A stretch of DNA of 64,000 nucleotides, from the NCBI RefSeq assembly GCF_006345805.1, contig NC_043017.1:2666001-2730000 (forward strand), read 5' to 3'. The DNA comes from Octopus sinensis (taxonomy: Eukaryota). Both the position numbers and the translations under genes were made by a program. How positions within the stretch are numbered: position 1 is the first letter of the stretch; every line of letters starts with the position of its first letter. Shown in pieces: positions 1,448-58,769 of the stretch. A model generated the notes under the pieces. That model searched no databases and was not told where the DNA came from. It worked only from the letters and a program-made list of their open reading frames with translations.

Positions 1448-2402
1448 ATACAATGTAATACACACACACACATTTACATACACACACAGGCATAAAGAAT
1501 AAAGAAAACAAAAGGGAAAAACTAGCCAATTAACTTAAAAATAATAGGTTAGAAGTAAGAGTTCAGACATAGGTCTTTTGGTGCACCATTTGAGGGGGGG
1601 GGCTGGGTCTTAATAACAGCCTCTACCTCTCTTTCTCTCCCCCTCCTCACTCTCTCTCTCTCTCCTTTTTCTGTATCTTTTTTTCTCTTTTCTTTATTTC
1701 TCTCCCTTAATTTCCTTAAGCTTCTCTCTCTGTCTTTCTCTGTTTCTCCTCTCACTCTCTTTCTTTCACTCATTGTCACCCATCACTCGTTCTCTCTCTC
1801 TCTCTCTTACTCCTACTCTCACTCCACTTCTACTCACACTCATAGCCATTCCTTCCCTTTAACTGCATTCATTCCCCCTTTTCTGGCTACAGCTACCCAT
1901 TCTAATCAAAATGTAAGGTGCATCCATACACGTGTGTGTGTGTGTGTGTGTGTTGTTCCAGTCTTTGGACTGTGGCAATGCTGGAGCAATGTCTTGTGGA
2001 ATTTTTCATCAAATGAATTGATCCCAGTACTTTTTATTTAATTTTTTTTTTTAATCTTTAAGCCTGGTATTTATTCTATTCTGTTGGTTCCTTTTGCTGC
2101 ACCGCTAAGTTATGGGGAAGTAAACACACTGGCACCAGATGTCAAGTTGTGGTGGGGACAAACACATACAAAGTCTCTCTCTCATACACACACACATACA
2201 CACACTCACACACATACATATATGACAGGCTTCTTTCAGTTTAACCCGTGCCAGCATGGAAAAAGGTCATTGAATGATGATGATAAGGATGATGGACCTT
2301 TATAGTCATTCGAAGTTTTAAAAAATCATACTTTTATAATTAAATATTATTTGGAATTATTTACATTGGATGACGGATATGTCATCATCTCATTTGTTGT
2401 TA

Positions 2403-2447
2403 CCACAACATTTCGGCTGGTTTACTCTCCAGCCTTCATCAGGTGTC
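2403..2447 (-). ncRNA. Type I minimal hammerhead ribozyme motif (inverted copy)
   Basis: Minus strand: gacac-CTGATGA-a-GGCTG-gagagtaaac-CAGCC-GAAA-tgtt-gtg; stem I CAC/GTG. Confidence 0.65.
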
Positions 2448-2605
2448 CTGATGGAATTTTGAACCCGACCCTGGGTTCTCATTCCGAAGGTATTTTTTGC
2501 TGATATTTATTCAAGGCACTGCCTGAAACTGAACTCGGAATCTTGAGGTTAGTAGCCCGCGCTCTTAACAACTATGCTATATGCCTGTGAGCAAAATTCC
2601 ACCAG

Positions 2606-2650
2606 GACATCTGATGACGGCTGGAGAGTAAATCAGCCGAAACATTGTAA
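2606..2650 (+). ncRNA. Type I minimal hammerhead ribozyme motif (Penelope-like)
   Basis: gacat-CTGATGA(2611-2617)-c-GGCTG-gagagtaaat-CAGCC-GAAAC(2639-2643)-att-gt. Stem III AACATT is probably a CpG-decayed AACGTT palindrome. Confidence 0.65.
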
Positions 2651-2990
2651 TAACAACAAACAAGATGAGGGCACATATCCATCCAATGTAAATAAAGTAT
2701 GGAAGTTCTCATTTTCACATTATAGAACAATATTTGGAATTGTATTTTTAAAAATGTTCGAATATTTTGTGTATTGTAAAAAAAAACCAATTTAATACAG
2801 ATAAATTTATCAACAGAATCTTATATGAACCCTTAAAGGCCATATGGACCCCGGTTGAAAACCACTGCCCTATAGCAATTTGTATGTAGTACACAGTATG
2901 TTGTTATAAAGGGTTATTTCCTCTGTGTGATGCGGGACTGGCGATTGTTTATATGGCTATGAAAATCACCCTGAAACAAAACTTAGATAT

Positions 2991-3168
2991 GTTTCGACCA
3001 AAGATTGGTCCAGGCCATGTCAAACTTAATAGCACCACCTGATAGGATTATCTAAATCCTGTTTAAGTTTTGTTTATGGTCCATTCAAGTTGTGAGTTCC
3101 TGTTGTGTGAGTTGTATCCAGGTATGGGTGGCTTATCTGGTATTCCTTGAAGAAATCTGTCCAGATTC
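2991..3168 (-). mobile_element. 5'-truncated CR1 LINE 3' end
   Basis: Aligns by eye to 25845-26012 (caggccatgt..aacttaatagcaccacctg; ttgaag.aatctgtcca). Minus strand encodes NLDRFLQGIPDKPPIPGY, a CR1 ORF2 C-terminus. Confidence 0.85.
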
Positions 3169-7675: not shown

Positions 7676-7707
<32 letters not shown>

Positions 7708-9649
7708 CACACATACACACACACATATACATACATACACGTGTGTATGTGTGTGCTTGGGCCTCATCTTGACATCTCATGATAGTTGTAAACGAGTGTC
7801 ACCTTCATACAAGTGGTATCGTTTGTTTCCAGTCGTTCATAAAAGCAAGGATTGGGTCATGGTGAAATATTGACCTCTCCTAGAAACAAATAAAAGTTGA
7901 CCCCAAGAAGGACATCAGATGAAATCTCCATTCACAAACTCTGTGTAACCCATGCAAATATGAAAGCTACATATCATCATTATCATCGTTTAATGTCCGT
8001 TTTTGATGCTAGCATGGGTTGGATGGTTCAACCAGGGTCTGGGAAGCCAGGAGGCTGCACCAAAATCCAGTCTGATCTGGTAGTGTATCTACAGCTGGAT
8101 GCCATTCCTAACACCAACCACTACGTGAGTGTAGTGGGTGCTTTTTACGTGCCACCAGCACAGGGGCCAGAGGAGGCTGGCAATGGCCACGATTGGTTGG
8201 TGCCTTTTACATGCCACCGGCACAGAAGCCAGTCAATGTAGCGCTGGCATCGGCCACATTCAGATGGTGCTTTTTACATACCACCGGTACGGGTATCACA
8301 ACTACAATTTCCATTTGATTTTTATTTTGATGTTGATATACTTGACTCAATAGGTCTCCTCAAGCACAGCAGGTCACCCTAGTGAGAGAGAGAGACAGGT
8401 GTGAGTGGATGCATGTGTGTGTCTCATTATAAGAGATGGTTCCTTTCTTTAGTAAACATTCATACCTTCTAAAAGACCCTCGTTCGGTGATGGTTATTTC
8501 TTGCTTTCATTTCCCCTATCCATGTCGTTCTCCTATTAAACATTTGTCTTTGTGTCAGTTACTTTCTAAATTAGGTTCTCAGTTTGATACAGACTATATT
8601 TCTCCTTGAGGTCATTGCGCTCACTTTGCTAACAACACCCCTGTACCTGAAGTGAGTTAGCTCTATTGTCTCTCCCTAAACCTTTTTTTTCCTCCCTACT
8701 TAGCAGCTGACTATAGAACAAGGTGCCCTGGAAAAGCCCTCAACAAATGCTCTGCTTGGTAATAACTGTTTAGTTTTAGTTAAAAACTTACAGTTCCTTC
8801 ACTAAGAAGGACATTGATGGTTTCATACTTTGGCACCAACCCAAAGAACATCTTAACTAAACTATTTCTCAGATTGTGTCTGTAAACTAGTTCTATAATT
8901 GTTGTGTGTCTGTGTAAGTGCATACATATATATATATATATGCATGCAAGTGTATATACATATTTCCCCTTCTCTCTCACTCTTATACACACAATTAAAA
9001 CCTCATAAACAAAAAGTTATGAGATTTAGCCTAATCAATATCTCTGTATTCCACCCCCAACACCTTCGTCCCCCACCACAACTACAGTCTCCCCCTTCGC
9101 CACCCTGCCACACACATACCAAAACTATATTTACAATGTGGAAATTTATTCCTTTCCCCTCGTACAAAAAAAAAAGAAAAAGAAAGAGAAAAAAAATCAA
9201 TATAATAAAGTTGCAAAACCCATTTTGCTCAACCTAATTAGTAAGCGGTTTAATTGGCCCACTTGTCTTGAATAAACCTTAACAATGGTCTAAGTTAGTT
9301 AACCTGTCGTTTGTTCCCTTCCCCCTGCCCTGCCTCCACCCCCGGCCCCTCTGTGTTAATTAGATGTTAATTAGATACAAATATAAGGCTGCTAGCTGCA
9401 AATATATCTCCTCTCTGGTTACTTTGATGTGTTCTTGTGAATACAGCTTAACTCTGTTGTTTTCCAATTACTCTGTCAAACGAAATGCTTATTTATTCAC
9501 ATCGTTTTGAATTAATCATGTATTATCTCATAGCTTCGAGATTATGATGTTGTGATTGTTTATTTTTAAAGCAACATTTTCGGGTAGATGTAAGAGGTTG
9601 GACCTGGCCAGTTCGAACATAGAACAGGTGAAATGTTTTGGCTTGGATT

Positions 9650-9978
9650 AAGACCACCTCTGGTCATGAATGACCATGGGATTGCACCTAGAAAGTTACT
9701 CTTCGAGGTACAAGTCTGAGCAACATTGTTTTTGTGGAAGATCAGCAGTCGCCCATGCACACCAGCCTCCCTTCTTTGTGCCACCAATGTTATCCAAGGG
9801 AAAGGCAAAGGGGCCGATATAGCTGTGATGTTGCAACTCCTTTCTACAGCTGAGTGAACTGGAGCAATGTGAAATAAAGTGTCTCGCTCAAGAACACAAT
9901 ACACAGCCCGGTCCAGGAATCGAACTCACTACCTCATGATTGTGAGCTCAATGCTCTAACCACTGAGCCATGCGCCTT
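9650..9978 (-). mobile_element. tRNA-derived SINE family D
   Basis: Minus strand: GGCGCATGGCTCAGTGGTTAGAGC...GAGTTCGATTCCTGGACCGGGCTGTGTATTGTGTTCTTGAGC. Copies at about 10930-11150, 50180-50450 and 59645-59988; related head at 63327-63620. Confidence 0.85.
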
Positions 9979-11348
9979 GGGTTGGATAGGGTCAGTTTAA
10001 ATGCTAAACAGTTAAATCACATAAGCTCATGTGTGTGTGAAACTGTCTGAGTATAAAAGCTTTTTTCCTTATTCTAAACGGTTCCTGCAGACTTGAAGAA
10101 TCCTCAGCTGTCCTTCTTTCATTGCTGGCATGAGTTTGATGGGTCTCTGATGGGTCCCTTCATCTCAACGCTTGTTTGGGGCCCCTGATTCCATGTGGCT
10201 CATTCCCAGTGGTAGTGGAAGGGAAAGAAGCATGAAGAGACTTATTTACATAAAGAATTCTGACAGGAAGTGGAATGCAAAGGAAGCTAATGAATGAATA
10301 AACATAATTAAAAGTTAATTAATTACATAATGTTACACACACTACACACACACACACAGCAAAGTAGGGGCTTATGTGTAACAAGACTTCATTTGACTAA
10401 CGAGGAAACACACATTCATACACATATACATGCATACAAACACACACACATATGCGTATACAAGATGTAGATGAAATTTGTGGATTTGTTAACATCTGGA
10501 GGAAGAAATGGTTTTGTCTGAAGTTGTTCCGTGCTGTGAATTTGATGGGAAGAGGTGATGGGCCAGTGTAGGTTGGTGTTTTTGTTGTGGATGAGCCAGA
10601 AGGATTATCAGAAGATACACAGCATGGCTGAATAATTAACAAATTTGCATTGCAAACAGAGCAGTCTGAGTTCGATTCCACTGCATGGCTTCTTGGGGGG
10701 AAATATTTTACCCATAGCCCTTTTTTTTTTTCGGCTTAAGCACTAATCATCATCGTCATTTAACATCTGTTTTCCACACTGGCATGGGTGGATAGGCAGA
10801 TGATTGCACCAGGCTTCACTGTCTGTTTTGACAGGGTTCTTTTCTGTCTGAATGTCCTCCCTAACATCAACCATTTCACTGGCTAAAAACGGTATGGACA
10901 TCTGTTGTCTTGTTCTTATAAGCTGTGAGGATGCCTGGCTTAGTGCTTAGAATGTTGTGCTCACGATTGTTAGATCATGGTTTCAGTTCCTAGACCGGGT
11001 GGTGTGTTCATCTCACATTGCTCTGCTCTGCAATCACTTTGACACCTGACACATGGTACACACGCACATGTTCAAAGTATTTCAATTTGATGAAGGGTGT
11101 GAGCTAATGTACAGCACATCCATTTGATCACTATAAGCAAATTCTTTTTTTACCCATTGCCCTCTGTTGACCCATGGACTGTGATTAAATTTTGATGAAC
11201 AGTATGTCTATTTGCCTAGCTAGGTTCAATTCAATATTTACCTATGAAGTGTGTGTATCTATGTACATACATATATATAAACTCGTTTATGATAGATTGT
11301 TTATGTGAATGTGTATATATATCTGTCTTTCTAATGTCTCTTATTTGC

Positions 11349-32166: not shown

Positions 32167-32210
32167 CTCAGCTGATGAGGTCATAACATTGCCGAAACAT
32201 GTTCGAAGTT
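32167..32210 (+). ncRNA. Degenerate minimal hammerhead motif (third family)
   Basis: CTGATGA(32172-32178)-GGtCA-taacat-TGCC-GAAAC(32194-32198)-ATGTT with palindromic stem III AACATGTT; stem I pairs poorly. Confidence 0.45.
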
Positions 32211-56254: not shown

Positions 56255-58150
56255 AATTTTATACATACTTATATATGTATATGTAAATGCATCTGGGTGG
56301 GTCTATGTATGTATGTTAAGTGTATAGTTTCTTGCGTATGTTTGTGTGTATATATGTATGTATGTGTGCATATATAAAAGCACTGCACTATTATCTGGGT
56401 TTAGCGGAGACAGCGACTGACATGAGCGATGCCATTAGCAGAACTGGCACCATTTGCTAATGGAATATTCTTGCAGTGGACTTCTTTCCTTTTATTTTAC
56501 TGGTCATTGTTGACATTGCTGTTGTTGTTAATGATGATGATGATGATGATGATGATGATGGCGATGAGGACGACGATAATGTTGTTGTTGTTGTCGTCAT
56601 TCATTTTTATTTGAACTCTGTTGACAGGTTAATGATATTGTTCCAACCCCTTTCCCTCCGCATCCCTCTCCCCCCTCATTTCTATAATTTCCTTCTTTCC
56701 CTTTTCTCCTGTATGTATGTGTGTGTGTGTGTGTGTGTCACACCATTTTCTCTTTATTCTCTATCCACCCCACCTCTCTCTCTCTCCTTGTTTCACTACG
56801 ATTTCTCTCTTTTCCTTCTCCCACCCTCCCTCTATCGCTTCCTGTCAATCTTTTTCACTCACTCTCTCTCTCTCTCTCTCATCTGTTTCATCTCTCTCCC
56901 AGCTCTGTCACTTTCTCTCTTTCTACTATCTACTTTCACTTTCGCATTTCGCTTCTCACTATATTTTCTCTCTCTCTCTCTCTCTCCCTTTCTCTCCATG
57001 GGTGTGACTGACTGACTGTTTGTGTGTGTGTATCTGTATCTGTGTGAGTGTGTGTGGTGGGGGGGAGACAGAAATTGGTAATTTCCACAAATGGTAGATT
57101 CTCCATAATGTTACTTACTAACAGCCGTTTGTTGCTGTTCTTCTTGTTGTTCTTCTTTTACTGATGATAGATTTAGCTTTTACACTATTTGCTATTTTAG
57201 TTTATCTTCACTAAGTGCACCGCTATTATTGCTTCGTGCTTCCCTAGCACCCAACCCCCCACCCGCATCACGCACCCCCCTCCTAACCTCCCACTCTTCG
57301 CCTCCCCTTCACCATTCCGCCGTTCCACCGTTCCTCTGCCAATACAATCTCTGCTGCATCTCATTAACCAACTTTTGCAGTTATTTGCATCTTTGTATTG
57401 CAGCACCTCACGCTAAAACGACGACAACCTATAAAGCCAGGAAGCGAAGCTATGACGGTTGACGTGAGAAGTGTTAAGCCTTAAGGTCCTAATTTGGGGC
57501 TGGGACACTCGAGCGTAGGCAACCTGTCTTGCCAATCACATATTCATATATGTTAGTAACATAGCTCCATGGATAAGAACTTCTTGTTATGATCTTGTGG
57601 CTTCAGCTTCAATCGCACTGCACAATATTTTGGGATATGTTCTCTTTTAAAATGGCCCCAGGTCAACCAAAGCCCTTGAATAAAATAAAATCCATTGGAG
57701 GGACTCTAACTATTCTTAAATGATAGAGTTAACCTTTTAATCTATTTAACCCCTCACCCTAGTGTTTGGGTACCTTGGTCATAGTACCCTTAGGTGCAAG
57801 AATTCACATCACAGCTTTAGCTTCTTCTTAATGCTACCCTCAGGAACCGGATTAAACCTTAACCTTTTCACATTCAGATTATTCTGTGAAATGTTACGCT
57901 TATTTATGCACCTTGTTTTGGATTAATCGTGCTTTATCACACAGCTTTGAGAAATTCCATGTTGTGACTATTCATTTTTAGAATGATATGTTAAGGCAGC
58001 AGTGAGGGTCTGGATCTGGAAGGTTCAAGCATTGAGACAAGTAGAATATTCAGGCCTGACATGACCAGTTTAATCCTTTAATATTCAAATAATTTTGTCA
58101 AATGTAATATTTATTTATCCACATTGTTTTGAACTAATCGGGCATTATCT

Positions 58151-58455
58151 GAACCACTACGCCATATGCCCGTGAGCATATGGCATAGTGGTTAAGAGCA
58201 TGGGCTACTAACTCTAAGATTCCGAGTTCGATTCCAGGCAGTGACCTGAATAATAATGATAATAATAATAATAAAGATAGCATCAAAAAATACCTTTGGA
58301 ATGAGAACCCAGGTTCGAAATTTCGCCAAGACACCTGACAAAGACTGAAGGGTATATCAGCTGAAATTTTGTGTTAACAACAAACAAGATGCGGACAAAT
58401 ATCTGTCAAATGTAAATAATGTAAATAATTCCTCATCTCTTGAATATAGAACTGT
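58151..58455 (+). mobile_element. Second copy of the tRNA-head + Penelope pLTR element, with TSD
   Basis: A box TGGCATAGTGG (58181) and B box GAGTTCGATTC, then the same downstream sequence as 2357-2520. Decayed hammerhead gacac-CTGACAA-AGACTGA..TCAGCT-GAAAT-ttt-gtgtt (58330-58375). Short inverted 5' duplication at 58152-58193. ATTATCT duplicated at 58144-58150 and 58456-58462 inside a MITE. Confidence 0.75.
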
Positions 58456-58769
58456 ATTATCTTATAGCTTTGAGATTTTTATGAAGTAACTGCTGATTTT
58501 CAGAACGATATTGTAGGGTAGATGTGAAAGGTCAGATCTGGTCTGTTTGAACGTAAAACAGATAGAATATTTTAGCCAGGTATGTCCAGTTTAAATGCTT
58601 TGGCATTCAGGTGTAATGCTTATTTATTCACCTTGCTTTGAATTCACCATGCATCATCTTGTAGCTTTCAGATTTTTATGAGGTTACTGTTAGTTTTTAG
58701 AACGATATTATAGAGTTGTTGCGAGGGAGCATATCTGGCCAGTTATAATAATATAATGGTGATTGATAT

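What the first reader, a model, noticed from the sequence alone, without database searches (positions are those of the whole stretch)
2357..2695. A SINE-like element joining a tRNA-derived Pol III head to a Penelope-type hammerhead ribozyme
Seen: on minus, a tRNA-like A/B-box head is followed about 70 nt later by CTGATGA-a-GGCTG-loop-CAGCC-GAAA, and the ribozyme-bearing ~105 bp is duplicated in inverted orientation on the other side of the head. An independent copy at 58151-58455 has the same head-ribozyme order and a TSD. Established: Penelope-like elements (PLEs) carry minimal type I hammerheads in their pseudo-LTRs, often form inverted repeats, and mobilise non-autonomous retrozymes; typical SINEs instead borrow a LINE 3' end. 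Inference: this is a Pol III-transcribed, ribozyme-processed retroposon family mobilised by a PLE reverse transcriptase. I do not know whether it has been described.
Basis: partly seen in the sequence, partly recalled or inferred. Interest (0 to 1): 0.85.

Follow-up and report, generated by a model that had tools for sequence, protein, structure and literature searches.

The report
Penelope retrotransposon with a tRNA-type promoter
The repeat is not a separate SINE but the terminal repeat of a protein-coding Penelope-type jumping gene, and that repeat begins with a tRNA-like stretch that likely serves as the element's promoter, which would be an unusual way to run such an element.

Summary
Window 2359-2730 is one insertion (11-bp TSD) made of two head-to-head arms, each with a minimal type I hammerhead; one arm starts with a degenerate tRNA-like A/B-box head. 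The same head + hammerhead follows the stop codon of an RT + GIY-YIG ORF in 27 of 29 loci picked only by endonuclease DNA. One copy reads pLTR-ORF-pLTR. So the unit is the pseudo-LTR of an autonomous Penelope/Poseidon element, about 30,000 arms or more. Hammerhead, inverted arm, tail and TSD are known PLE features. New: the tRNA head sits at the pLTR 5' edge, where 26 of 36 copies that reach it begin (4-6% expected), and the sense strand has no shared T4 run in 16 copies (0 of 17 control pLTRs are T4-free). Likely a captured Pol III promoter. Pol III use is untested, and a palindrome at the same edge is a real rival.

The parts
2348..2358 (.). left copy of 11-bp target site duplication
2359..2594 (-). 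arm 1: solo pseudo-LTR of a Penelope/Poseidon element, from just above the tRNA head to the first 3' end site
2514..2586 (-). degenerate tRNA-like head (A box 2579-2569, B box 2534-2525, both with mismatches in this copy)
2480..2482 (-). ATG that, in full-length copies, opens the reading frame running through the hammerhead into the ORF (inferred start)
2402..2447 (-). minimal type I hammerhead: stem I strands 2447-2443 and 2406-2402, core from 2442, stem II, GAAA ending 2411; C15.2 mutated to U
2592..2730 (+). arm 2: inverted, 5'-truncated pseudo-LTR running through the optional tail; overlaps arm 1 by 3 nt at the junction
2606..2651 (+). second minimal hammerhead; G16.2 mutated to A
2731..2741 (.). 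right copy of 11-bp target site duplication
58144..58150 (.). left 7-bp TSD of second insertion (right copy 58456-58462; same letters as the element's tail)
58151..58175 (-). short inverted copy of the head's 5' part, joined at the palindrome
58174..58455 (+). second solo pseudo-LTR: head, (AAT)n tract, hammerhead with broken core (58336-58367), tail

Best explanation
The locus is a double-armed insertion of the pseudo-LTR of an autonomous Penelope/Poseidon retrotransposon whose repeat starts with a tRNA-like A/B-box head that likely acts as an internal RNA polymerase III promoter. Shown: the head and hammerhead follow the RT-endonuclease ORF, a pLTR-ORF-pLTR copy exists, most copies that reach the head begin there, and the insertion has a TSD. 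Inferred steps: (1) a tRNA-derived sequence was captured about 30 nt after the stop codon; (2) transcripts start 7-13 nt above the A box and run uncut through the hammerhead into the ORF start; (3) the element's protein nicks both target strands and begins reverse transcription inside the RNA at two sites near the pLTR-ORF junction, as shown in vitro for the anole element (PMC11167929); (4) each cDNA runs toward the RNA 5' end, many reach it, and the two cDNA ends join head to head. The short copies therefore behave like a SINE but are by-products of the autonomous element, not a separate lineage.
For: ORF link: head downstream in 28 of 30 endonuclease-picked loci and hammerhead region in 24 of 30, above the shuffle maxima (one locus was the query's own, so 27 and 23 of 29; two hammerhead scores borderline). 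Head downstream in 18 of 30 RT-picked loci. RT: Pfam RVT_1, E 3.5e-10. Endonuclease: 37% to a protein with a GIY-YIG hit, E 8e-52. Full-length L209 has a 5' pLTR starting at the head. The frame through the hammerhead aligns with the N-terminus of relative P0004, E 4e-21. 5' ends: 26 of 36 main arms and 12 of 15 partner arms that reach the head edge stop in a 14-nt window, 4-6% expected, p < 1e-23; 21 of 26 in a second sample that shares 21 of its 90 loci with the first. Only 3 of the 26 pair with a partner that ends at the same edge. Genome counts step 3,492 (head) to 976 (ORF end) over about 65 nt. Two 3' end classes, 51 and 38 of 90. Inverted partner in 51 of 90; 8 of 8 close pairs head-to-head. 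No T4 run in the pLTR majority sequence and none shared among 16 ORF copies; synonymous nulls P 0.049 and 0.004; Phe TTT:TTC 5:14 against 89:64 for other two-fold codons, p 0.013; 0 of 17 control pLTRs T4-free.
Against: No direct test of the polymerase. Penelope pLTRs often have palindromes at their 5' ends and fixed lengths without any tRNA part (PMC3846280, passages), and a 12-nt palindrome lies exactly at this edge; several junctions are hairpins there. D. virilis Penelope uses a LINE-like internal promoter (PMC2377424, passages). A weak TATA-like word lies 23-30 nt above the edge. T4 absence per single copy is not significant against dinucleotide shuffles in 15 of 16 copies, and 5 of 40 T-matched control ORF stretches also lack T4, including one family over 1.9-2.1 kb with no tRNA head. 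The head is not called by Rfam or ARAGORN. RNA reads of a related organism show no pile of starts or ends.
Confidence: 0.6

Rival explanations
1. Ordinary Poseidon pLTR with a passenger tRNA-like insert. The element is Pol II-transcribed, and copies start at the head only because a palindrome there stops or folds back the cDNA, or because a Pol II start happens to lie there.
For: Palindromes at pLTR 5' ends and inverted junctions are described for Penelope. Hairpin junctions occur at this edge. A LINE-like internal promoter was mapped in D. virilis Penelope. Kojima argues that autonomous partners of Pol III TRIMs must use Pol II (PMC10886601, section 4). T4-free ORFs occur without a head.
Against: 23 of 26 edge junctions do not pair with a partner ending at the same edge. 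The predicted hairpin has only 3 pairs. The pLTR lacks the TATAAA and T-rich tracts of control pLTRs (12 of 17 and 17 of 17). The boxes of the majority sequence sit at the spacing found in tRNA genes.
Confidence: 0.27
2. One reading: an independent Pol III SINE (head + hammerhead) with its own source genes, processed by its ribozyme and mobilised in trans by a PLE.
For: Head-start copies outnumber ORF-linked ones about 2.6 to 1. Some long arms carry the palindrome's apex in the reversed form, which could come from transcription of short double-armed loci. Precedent: Schistosoma SINE-like repeats and non-autonomous Chlamys elements (PMC8557442, passages).
Against: The head is part of the autonomous element. 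No diagnostic positions and similar non-CpG divergence, 4.9% against 5.5%. Both sub-variants occur linked to the ORF. 1 of 90 5' ends at the cut site. 3' ends lie beyond the cut.
Confidence: 0.08
3. The tRNA-like head is a processing signal. RNase P cuts a long Pol II transcript at tRNA position +1 and so makes the common 5' end.
For: Position +1 is the single commonest start, 7 of 26.
Against: 16 of 26 starts lie 2-7 nt upstream of +1, some without a hairpin partner. The acceptor and T stems pair poorly, and ARAGORN finds no proper cloverleaf even at a lowered threshold.
Confidence: 0.05

Closest known systems
Penelope/Poseidon PLEs and their pLTRs (A. vaga Pen2a, anole Poseidon PAc, D. virilis Penelope; PMC3846280, PMC11167929, PMC2377424)
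   Same: Single RT + C-terminal GIY-YIG ORF, pLTR-ORF-pLTR, pLTR overlapping the ORF start, hammerhead in the pLTR, inverted 5'-truncated arm, optional tail from two RT start sites, TSD of about 10 bp, palindrome at the 5' edge.
   Different: The pLTR starts with a tRNA-like A/B-box head and an (AAT)n tract, is A-rich and has no T4 run; control pLTRs are T-rich, often with TATAAA. No tRNA part is mentioned in the passages or sections I read of these papers.
Minimal PLE hammerheads (Cervera and de la Pena 2014, PMC4209133)
   Same: Core, extra base between 9 and 10.1, G10.1-C11.1, long helix II, short helix I, palindromic 15.2-16.2. The paper already notes pairs of min-HHRs 100-700 bp apart on opposite strands as probable truncated PLEs.
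   Different: Nothing new in the ribozyme itself.
Schistosoma Sm-alpha / Sj-alpha SINE-like repeats (via review PMC6765202)
   Same: Pol III-type promoter followed by a hammerhead.
   Different: Those are non-coding, often tandem, with canonical hammerheads that free monomers; here the unit is part of a coding element, dispersed, head-to-head, and copied uncut.
TRIMp3: Cassandra, Helenus, Ajax (PMC10886601)
   Same: A small-RNA-gene promoter sits inside a terminal repeat, probably by capture of a SINE or tRNA sequence.
   Different: Those are non-autonomous LTR elements of 0.3-1.3 kb; here the repeat belongs to an autonomous PLE of about 3 kb.
Non-LTR retrozymes (bioRxiv 10.64898/2026.07.22.740005)
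   Same: Short hammerhead-bearing units derived from PLE pLTRs.
   Different: Retrozymes are defined as head-to-tail tandem arrays; close pairs here are head-to-head (8 of 8), and that preprint describes no tRNA head in the parts read.

Membership tests
Penelope/Poseidon PLE (pLTR of) | PLE-type reverse transcriptase upstream on the same strand | tested here: met
Penelope/Poseidon PLE (pLTR of) | C-terminal GIY-YIG endonuclease in the same ORF | tested here: met
   37% to P0040 across its PF01541 hit; no direct Pfam hit on the family's own stretch
Penelope/Poseidon PLE (pLTR of) | [quoted passage not shown] | tested here: met
   by eye on translations; criterion from PMC8557442
Penelope/Poseidon PLE (pLTR of) | Partial tandem pLTR-ORF-pLTR with the ORF start inside the pLTR | tested here: met
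   L209 and L211, 2 of 30 RT-picked loci
Penelope/Poseidon PLE (pLTR of) | Inverted 5'-truncated arm, optional 30-40 bp tail, TSD | tested here: met
   51 of 90; 38 of 90 with tail; TSD 11 and 7 bp
Penelope/Poseidon PLE (pLTR of) | RT phylogeny inside the Penelope/Poseidon clade | not tested
   no named reference PLE proteins on hand; hits carry no clade labels
Minimal type I hammerhead | Conserved core, helices I and II, palindromic 15.2-16.2 | tested here: met
   majority intact; 32 of 71 copies keep the core; N7 is the one core position with a common non-CpG variant, T 53 / A 16; 2,405 exact genome matches
Minimal type I hammerhead | Stem covariation | tested here: not met
   none seen among 71 copies of this one family (read from the alignment); expected for neutrally decaying copies
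Minimal type I hammerhead | Self-cleavage | not testable with these tools
   the MFE fold of two copies did not give the dimer form; no assay
tRNA-derived SINE | tRNA-related head with A and B boxes | tested here: met
   49 of 73 identical to the genome's tRNA-Arg(TCT), z 6.6; Ala 47; isotype unresolved among 20 distinct tRNA sequences of 6 isotypes
tRNA-derived SINE | Transcribed by Pol III | not testable with these tools
   indirect only
tRNA-derived SINE | Own lineage, sharing only a 3' end with the autonomous partner | tested here: not met
   whole unit lies in the autonomous element; no diagnostic sites
tRNA-derived SINE | A-rich or simple-repeat 3' tail | tested here: not met
   3' ends fall at two internal PLE sites
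Non-LTR retrozyme | Head-to-tail tandem units each with a hammerhead | tested here: not met
   0 of 8 close pairs among the first 100 hits; a few direct partial tandems exist (L061, L075, L190)
Non-LTR retrozyme | Circular RNA | not testable with these tools
   libraries are not suited

The most novel reading that the evidence does not exclude
An autonomous, protein-coding retrotransposon whose whole transcript of about 2.7-3 kb is made by RNA polymerase III from a captured tRNA promoter in its terminal repeat. Its ORF has been purged of T4 terminators, and it sheds tens of thousands of SINE-like copies of its own promoter.
Probability: 0.3. Interest if true: 0.85.

Novelty: new variant of a known kind. 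Interest (0 to 1): 0.58.

Why it matters
How PLEs are transcribed and why they leave inverted, tailed, solo repeats is still open. Here the 5' ends of many genomic copies mark one start position directly above a tRNA-type promoter, which makes the polymerase question testable with one construct. If Pol III makes the full-length RNA, it contradicts the view that autonomous retrotransposons must use Pol II (stated in PMC10886601 for LTR partners) and implies translation of an uncapped mRNA. It also shows a route to SINE-like families from inside an autonomous element, and warns that annotation tools may file such pLTRs as tRNA SINEs. If the head is only a passenger, the locus is an ordinary truncated Penelope insertion.

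Tried and rejected
Rfam scans and ARAGORN gave no hammerhead or tRNA call on the element. An apparent cluster of 5' ends at the ribozyme cut site in the first sample (7 of 90 at 249-254) sat next to the search word; with a word further downstream it fell to 1 of 90, so I rejected it. A stand-alone head + (AAT)n SINE was not found: the 4 of 27 distinct head-picked loci without a hammerhead are deleted, interrupted or inverted partner arms. The -464 'start' shared by several ORF copies is an artefact of a deletion in my reference copy. No RNA holder was listed for the stretch. Raw RNA reads of related organism B (3 runs of one study, about 6% of each read) gave 7,696-10,969 reads on both orientations about equally, 70-73% running on into unlike sequence, with no piles of starts or ends; this fits passive transcription and says nothing on Pol III. 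The first metagenome scan found no relative. In the second I used 68 of 80 loci for T-run counts (matches of about 1 kb or more) and 46 of those for a motif scan; none showed an A+B box pair after the ORF (strict pattern, many contigs end early). Earlier scan notes held nothing. Literature: nine searches showed no paper on a tRNA head in a PLE pLTR; the library lacks most subscription journals and Repbase or Dfam, where the family may be curated. The 1994 paper on three octopus tRNA SINEs was not held; OR2 is listed as a CORE SINE (PMC4758252, passage), but I could not compare sequences. Supplements of the papers were not read and may hold consensus sequences that bear on novelty.

Full report
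Observation. Both strands of 2100-3000 and 57900-58700 were read. On minus, a tRNA-like head (2586-2514) is followed 72 nt later by a hammerhead core at 2442. A second core lies on plus at 2611. The core pattern is enriched in the window (12 hits, 3.96 expected). The two arms are 85% alike, and the 58 kb copy is 73% alike to arm 1. The family form of the ribozyme is a minimal type I hammerhead: 5-bp stem I, CUGANGA, one extra base, 6-bp stem II, GAAA and a palindromic C-G in place of stem III. This matches the description in PMC4209133 (first part read, plus passages). The window copies have decayed at the CpG of that palindrome, and the 58 kb copy has also lost G8. An 11-bp TSD at 2348 and 2731 shows that both arms are one insertion, 2359-2730. 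Rfam and ARAGORN call nothing here.

Family. The host genome has 2.7 billion bases. I guessed a cephalopod from recalled repeat types and did not test it. A 22-base word of the tail has 9,979 exact matches, control 0. About a third of copies keep that word (23 of 69), which gives about 30,000 arms; this is a lower bound, since only 2 of 19 endonuclease-picked copies keep it. An intact-core pattern has 2,405 matches. Public runs labelled with six organisms hold the stretch.

What it is part of. Four of the first 30 loci shared upstream DNA that translates to the end of a GIY-YIG domain, and a fifth shared its last 70 bases. I then picked 30 loci by endonuclease DNA alone. The head follows the stop codon in 28 of 30 and the hammerhead region in 24 of 30, above shuffle maxima; one locus was the query's own. 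Further upstream lies a Penelope-type RT, with 861 relatives at E 1e-20 or better. The C-terminal part aligns across a GIY-YIG Pfam hit of a relative. Among 30 loci picked by RT DNA, 18 carry the head downstream; most of the rest break off inside the ORF. L209 reads pLTR-ORF-pLTR with the 5' pLTR starting at the head, and L211 has a truncated 5' pLTR. The reading frame runs back through the hammerhead to an ATG in the pLTR and aligns with the N-terminus of an 847-aa relative. The unit is therefore the pseudo-LTR of an autonomous element with the Penelope/Poseidon layout; I built no tree.

How the short copies arise. In 90 arms picked only by the tail word (the first 100 matches on contig C1, less 10: 8 pair partners and the last 2), 5' ends were mapped: 29 in the body, 18 in or ambiguous at the (AAT)n tract (many interrupted by other inserts), 7 inside the head, 26 in a 14-nt window at the head's 5' edge and 10 in the ORF. 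One arm counted inside the head (L085) is really an ORF read-through, and one edge case (L197) is complex; neither changes the result. Background stop rates predict 4-6% for such a window; 72% were seen. Partner arms agree (12 of 15). A second sample picked by a word further downstream gave 21 of 26; 21 of its 90 loci repeat the first sample. An inverted partner was found in 51 of 90, and all 8 close pairs were head-to-head. 3' ends fall into two classes, 51 and 38 of 90, with one running on into the ORF. This is what PMC11167929 (first two parts read) reports for anole Poseidon in vitro: both strands are cut and extended, reverse transcription starts at two internal sites near the pLTR-ORF junction, and uncut RNA is the main template. 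[quoted passage not shown]

Is the head a promoter? It aligns best with the genome's own tRNA-Arg(TCT), 49 of 73, and nearly as well with tRNA-Ala. It does not fold into a good cloverleaf. Non-ORF starts reach up to about 13 nt above the A box, where Pol III type 2 starts are expected (established knowledge, recalled). The pLTR majority sequence has no run of four T. In 16 copies covering up to 2.3 kb of ORF, the 8 T4 runs seen are each present in only one or two copies. Against nulls the evidence is moderate: about 5 expected from base content and 2-3 from dinucleotides; P 0.049 with the element's own codon usage and 0.004 with third-base usage over 2,169 nt; Phe prefers TTC. PLEs from other organisms average 2.4 runs per kb at matched T content, but 5 of 40 such stretches have none, one family over about 2 kb. 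All 17 control pLTRs with a visible hammerhead have T4 runs; several of these are copies of the same family.

Results against my reading. A 12-nt palindrome lies at the same edge, and palindromes at pLTR 5' ends are described for Penelope elements with no tRNA part (PMC3846280, passages). D. virilis Penelope has a LINE-like internal promoter (PMC2377424, passages). RNA reads show no discrete start. No experiment identifies the polymerase.

No position separates 25 head-start copies from 41 ORF-linked ones; the lowest p, 0.003 of 254 tests, is at the junction edge. Only 1 of 90 5' ends lies at the cut site. No compensatory stem changes were seen.

Comparison with the literature. Known: PLE min-hammerheads and opposite-strand pairs; inverted arms, tails and non-autonomous PLE derivatives (PMC8557442, passages); retrozymes from pLTRs (preprint, parts 1-3 of 5); Pol III promoter plus hammerhead in Schistosoma (review passages); tRNA or 5S promoters inside LTRs of non-autonomous TRIMs (PMC10886601, abstract and section 4). 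Two cephalopod repeat surveys (PMC13282606, PMC8967140; passages) and SINEBase (PMC3531059, passages) do not mention such an element in the passages seen. Nine searches found no report of a tRNA head in the pLTR of an autonomous PLE.

Verdict. A real feature and a new variant of a known kind. That it is a Penelope-type pLTR is near certain. That the head works as a Pol III promoter is about 0.6. That the full coding RNA is a Pol III product is about 0.3. Interest 0.58.

Noticed in passing
window 32172-32205 (+): A further hammerhead-like motif (CTGATGA, weak stem II, CGAAAC followed by a short palindrome) unrelated in sequence to this family; possibly the pLTR of another PLE.
   Followed up: partly
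L088, L073, L086, L112, L142, L178, L189, L192: The (AAT)n tract of the pLTR is often interrupted by other retroelements that end in (AAT)n, so it appears to be an insertion target.
   Followed up: no
window arm 1; L002, L005, L030 versus L033-L060: Two sub-variants differ by a 6-nt insertion before stem I, the stem II loop and stem I; the window's arm 1 is of the rarer one, and both occur linked to the ORF.
   Followed up: partly
window about 2740-2870 and L004 flanks: The window insertion and L004 seem to sit in copies of the same host repeat (read by eye).
   Followed up: no
window about 57900-58700: The second insertion interrupts a degenerate tandem repeat, whose units can be followed by eye across the TSD.
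   Followed up: no
L264, L275 (WLWD01 contigs): A PLE family from another organism with no T4 run over 1.9-2.1 kb of ORF but a T-rich pLTR and no tRNA head.
   Followed up: partly
L238, L244, L302, L304: PLE hammerheads with a variant core (CUAUGA form) that the standard pattern misses.
   Followed up: no
L113, L114, L116, L117 (G000:C1 21.69-22.60 Mb); L019, L020; L215, L216: Near-identical duplicated loci, either segmental duplication or assembly redundancy.
   Followed up: no
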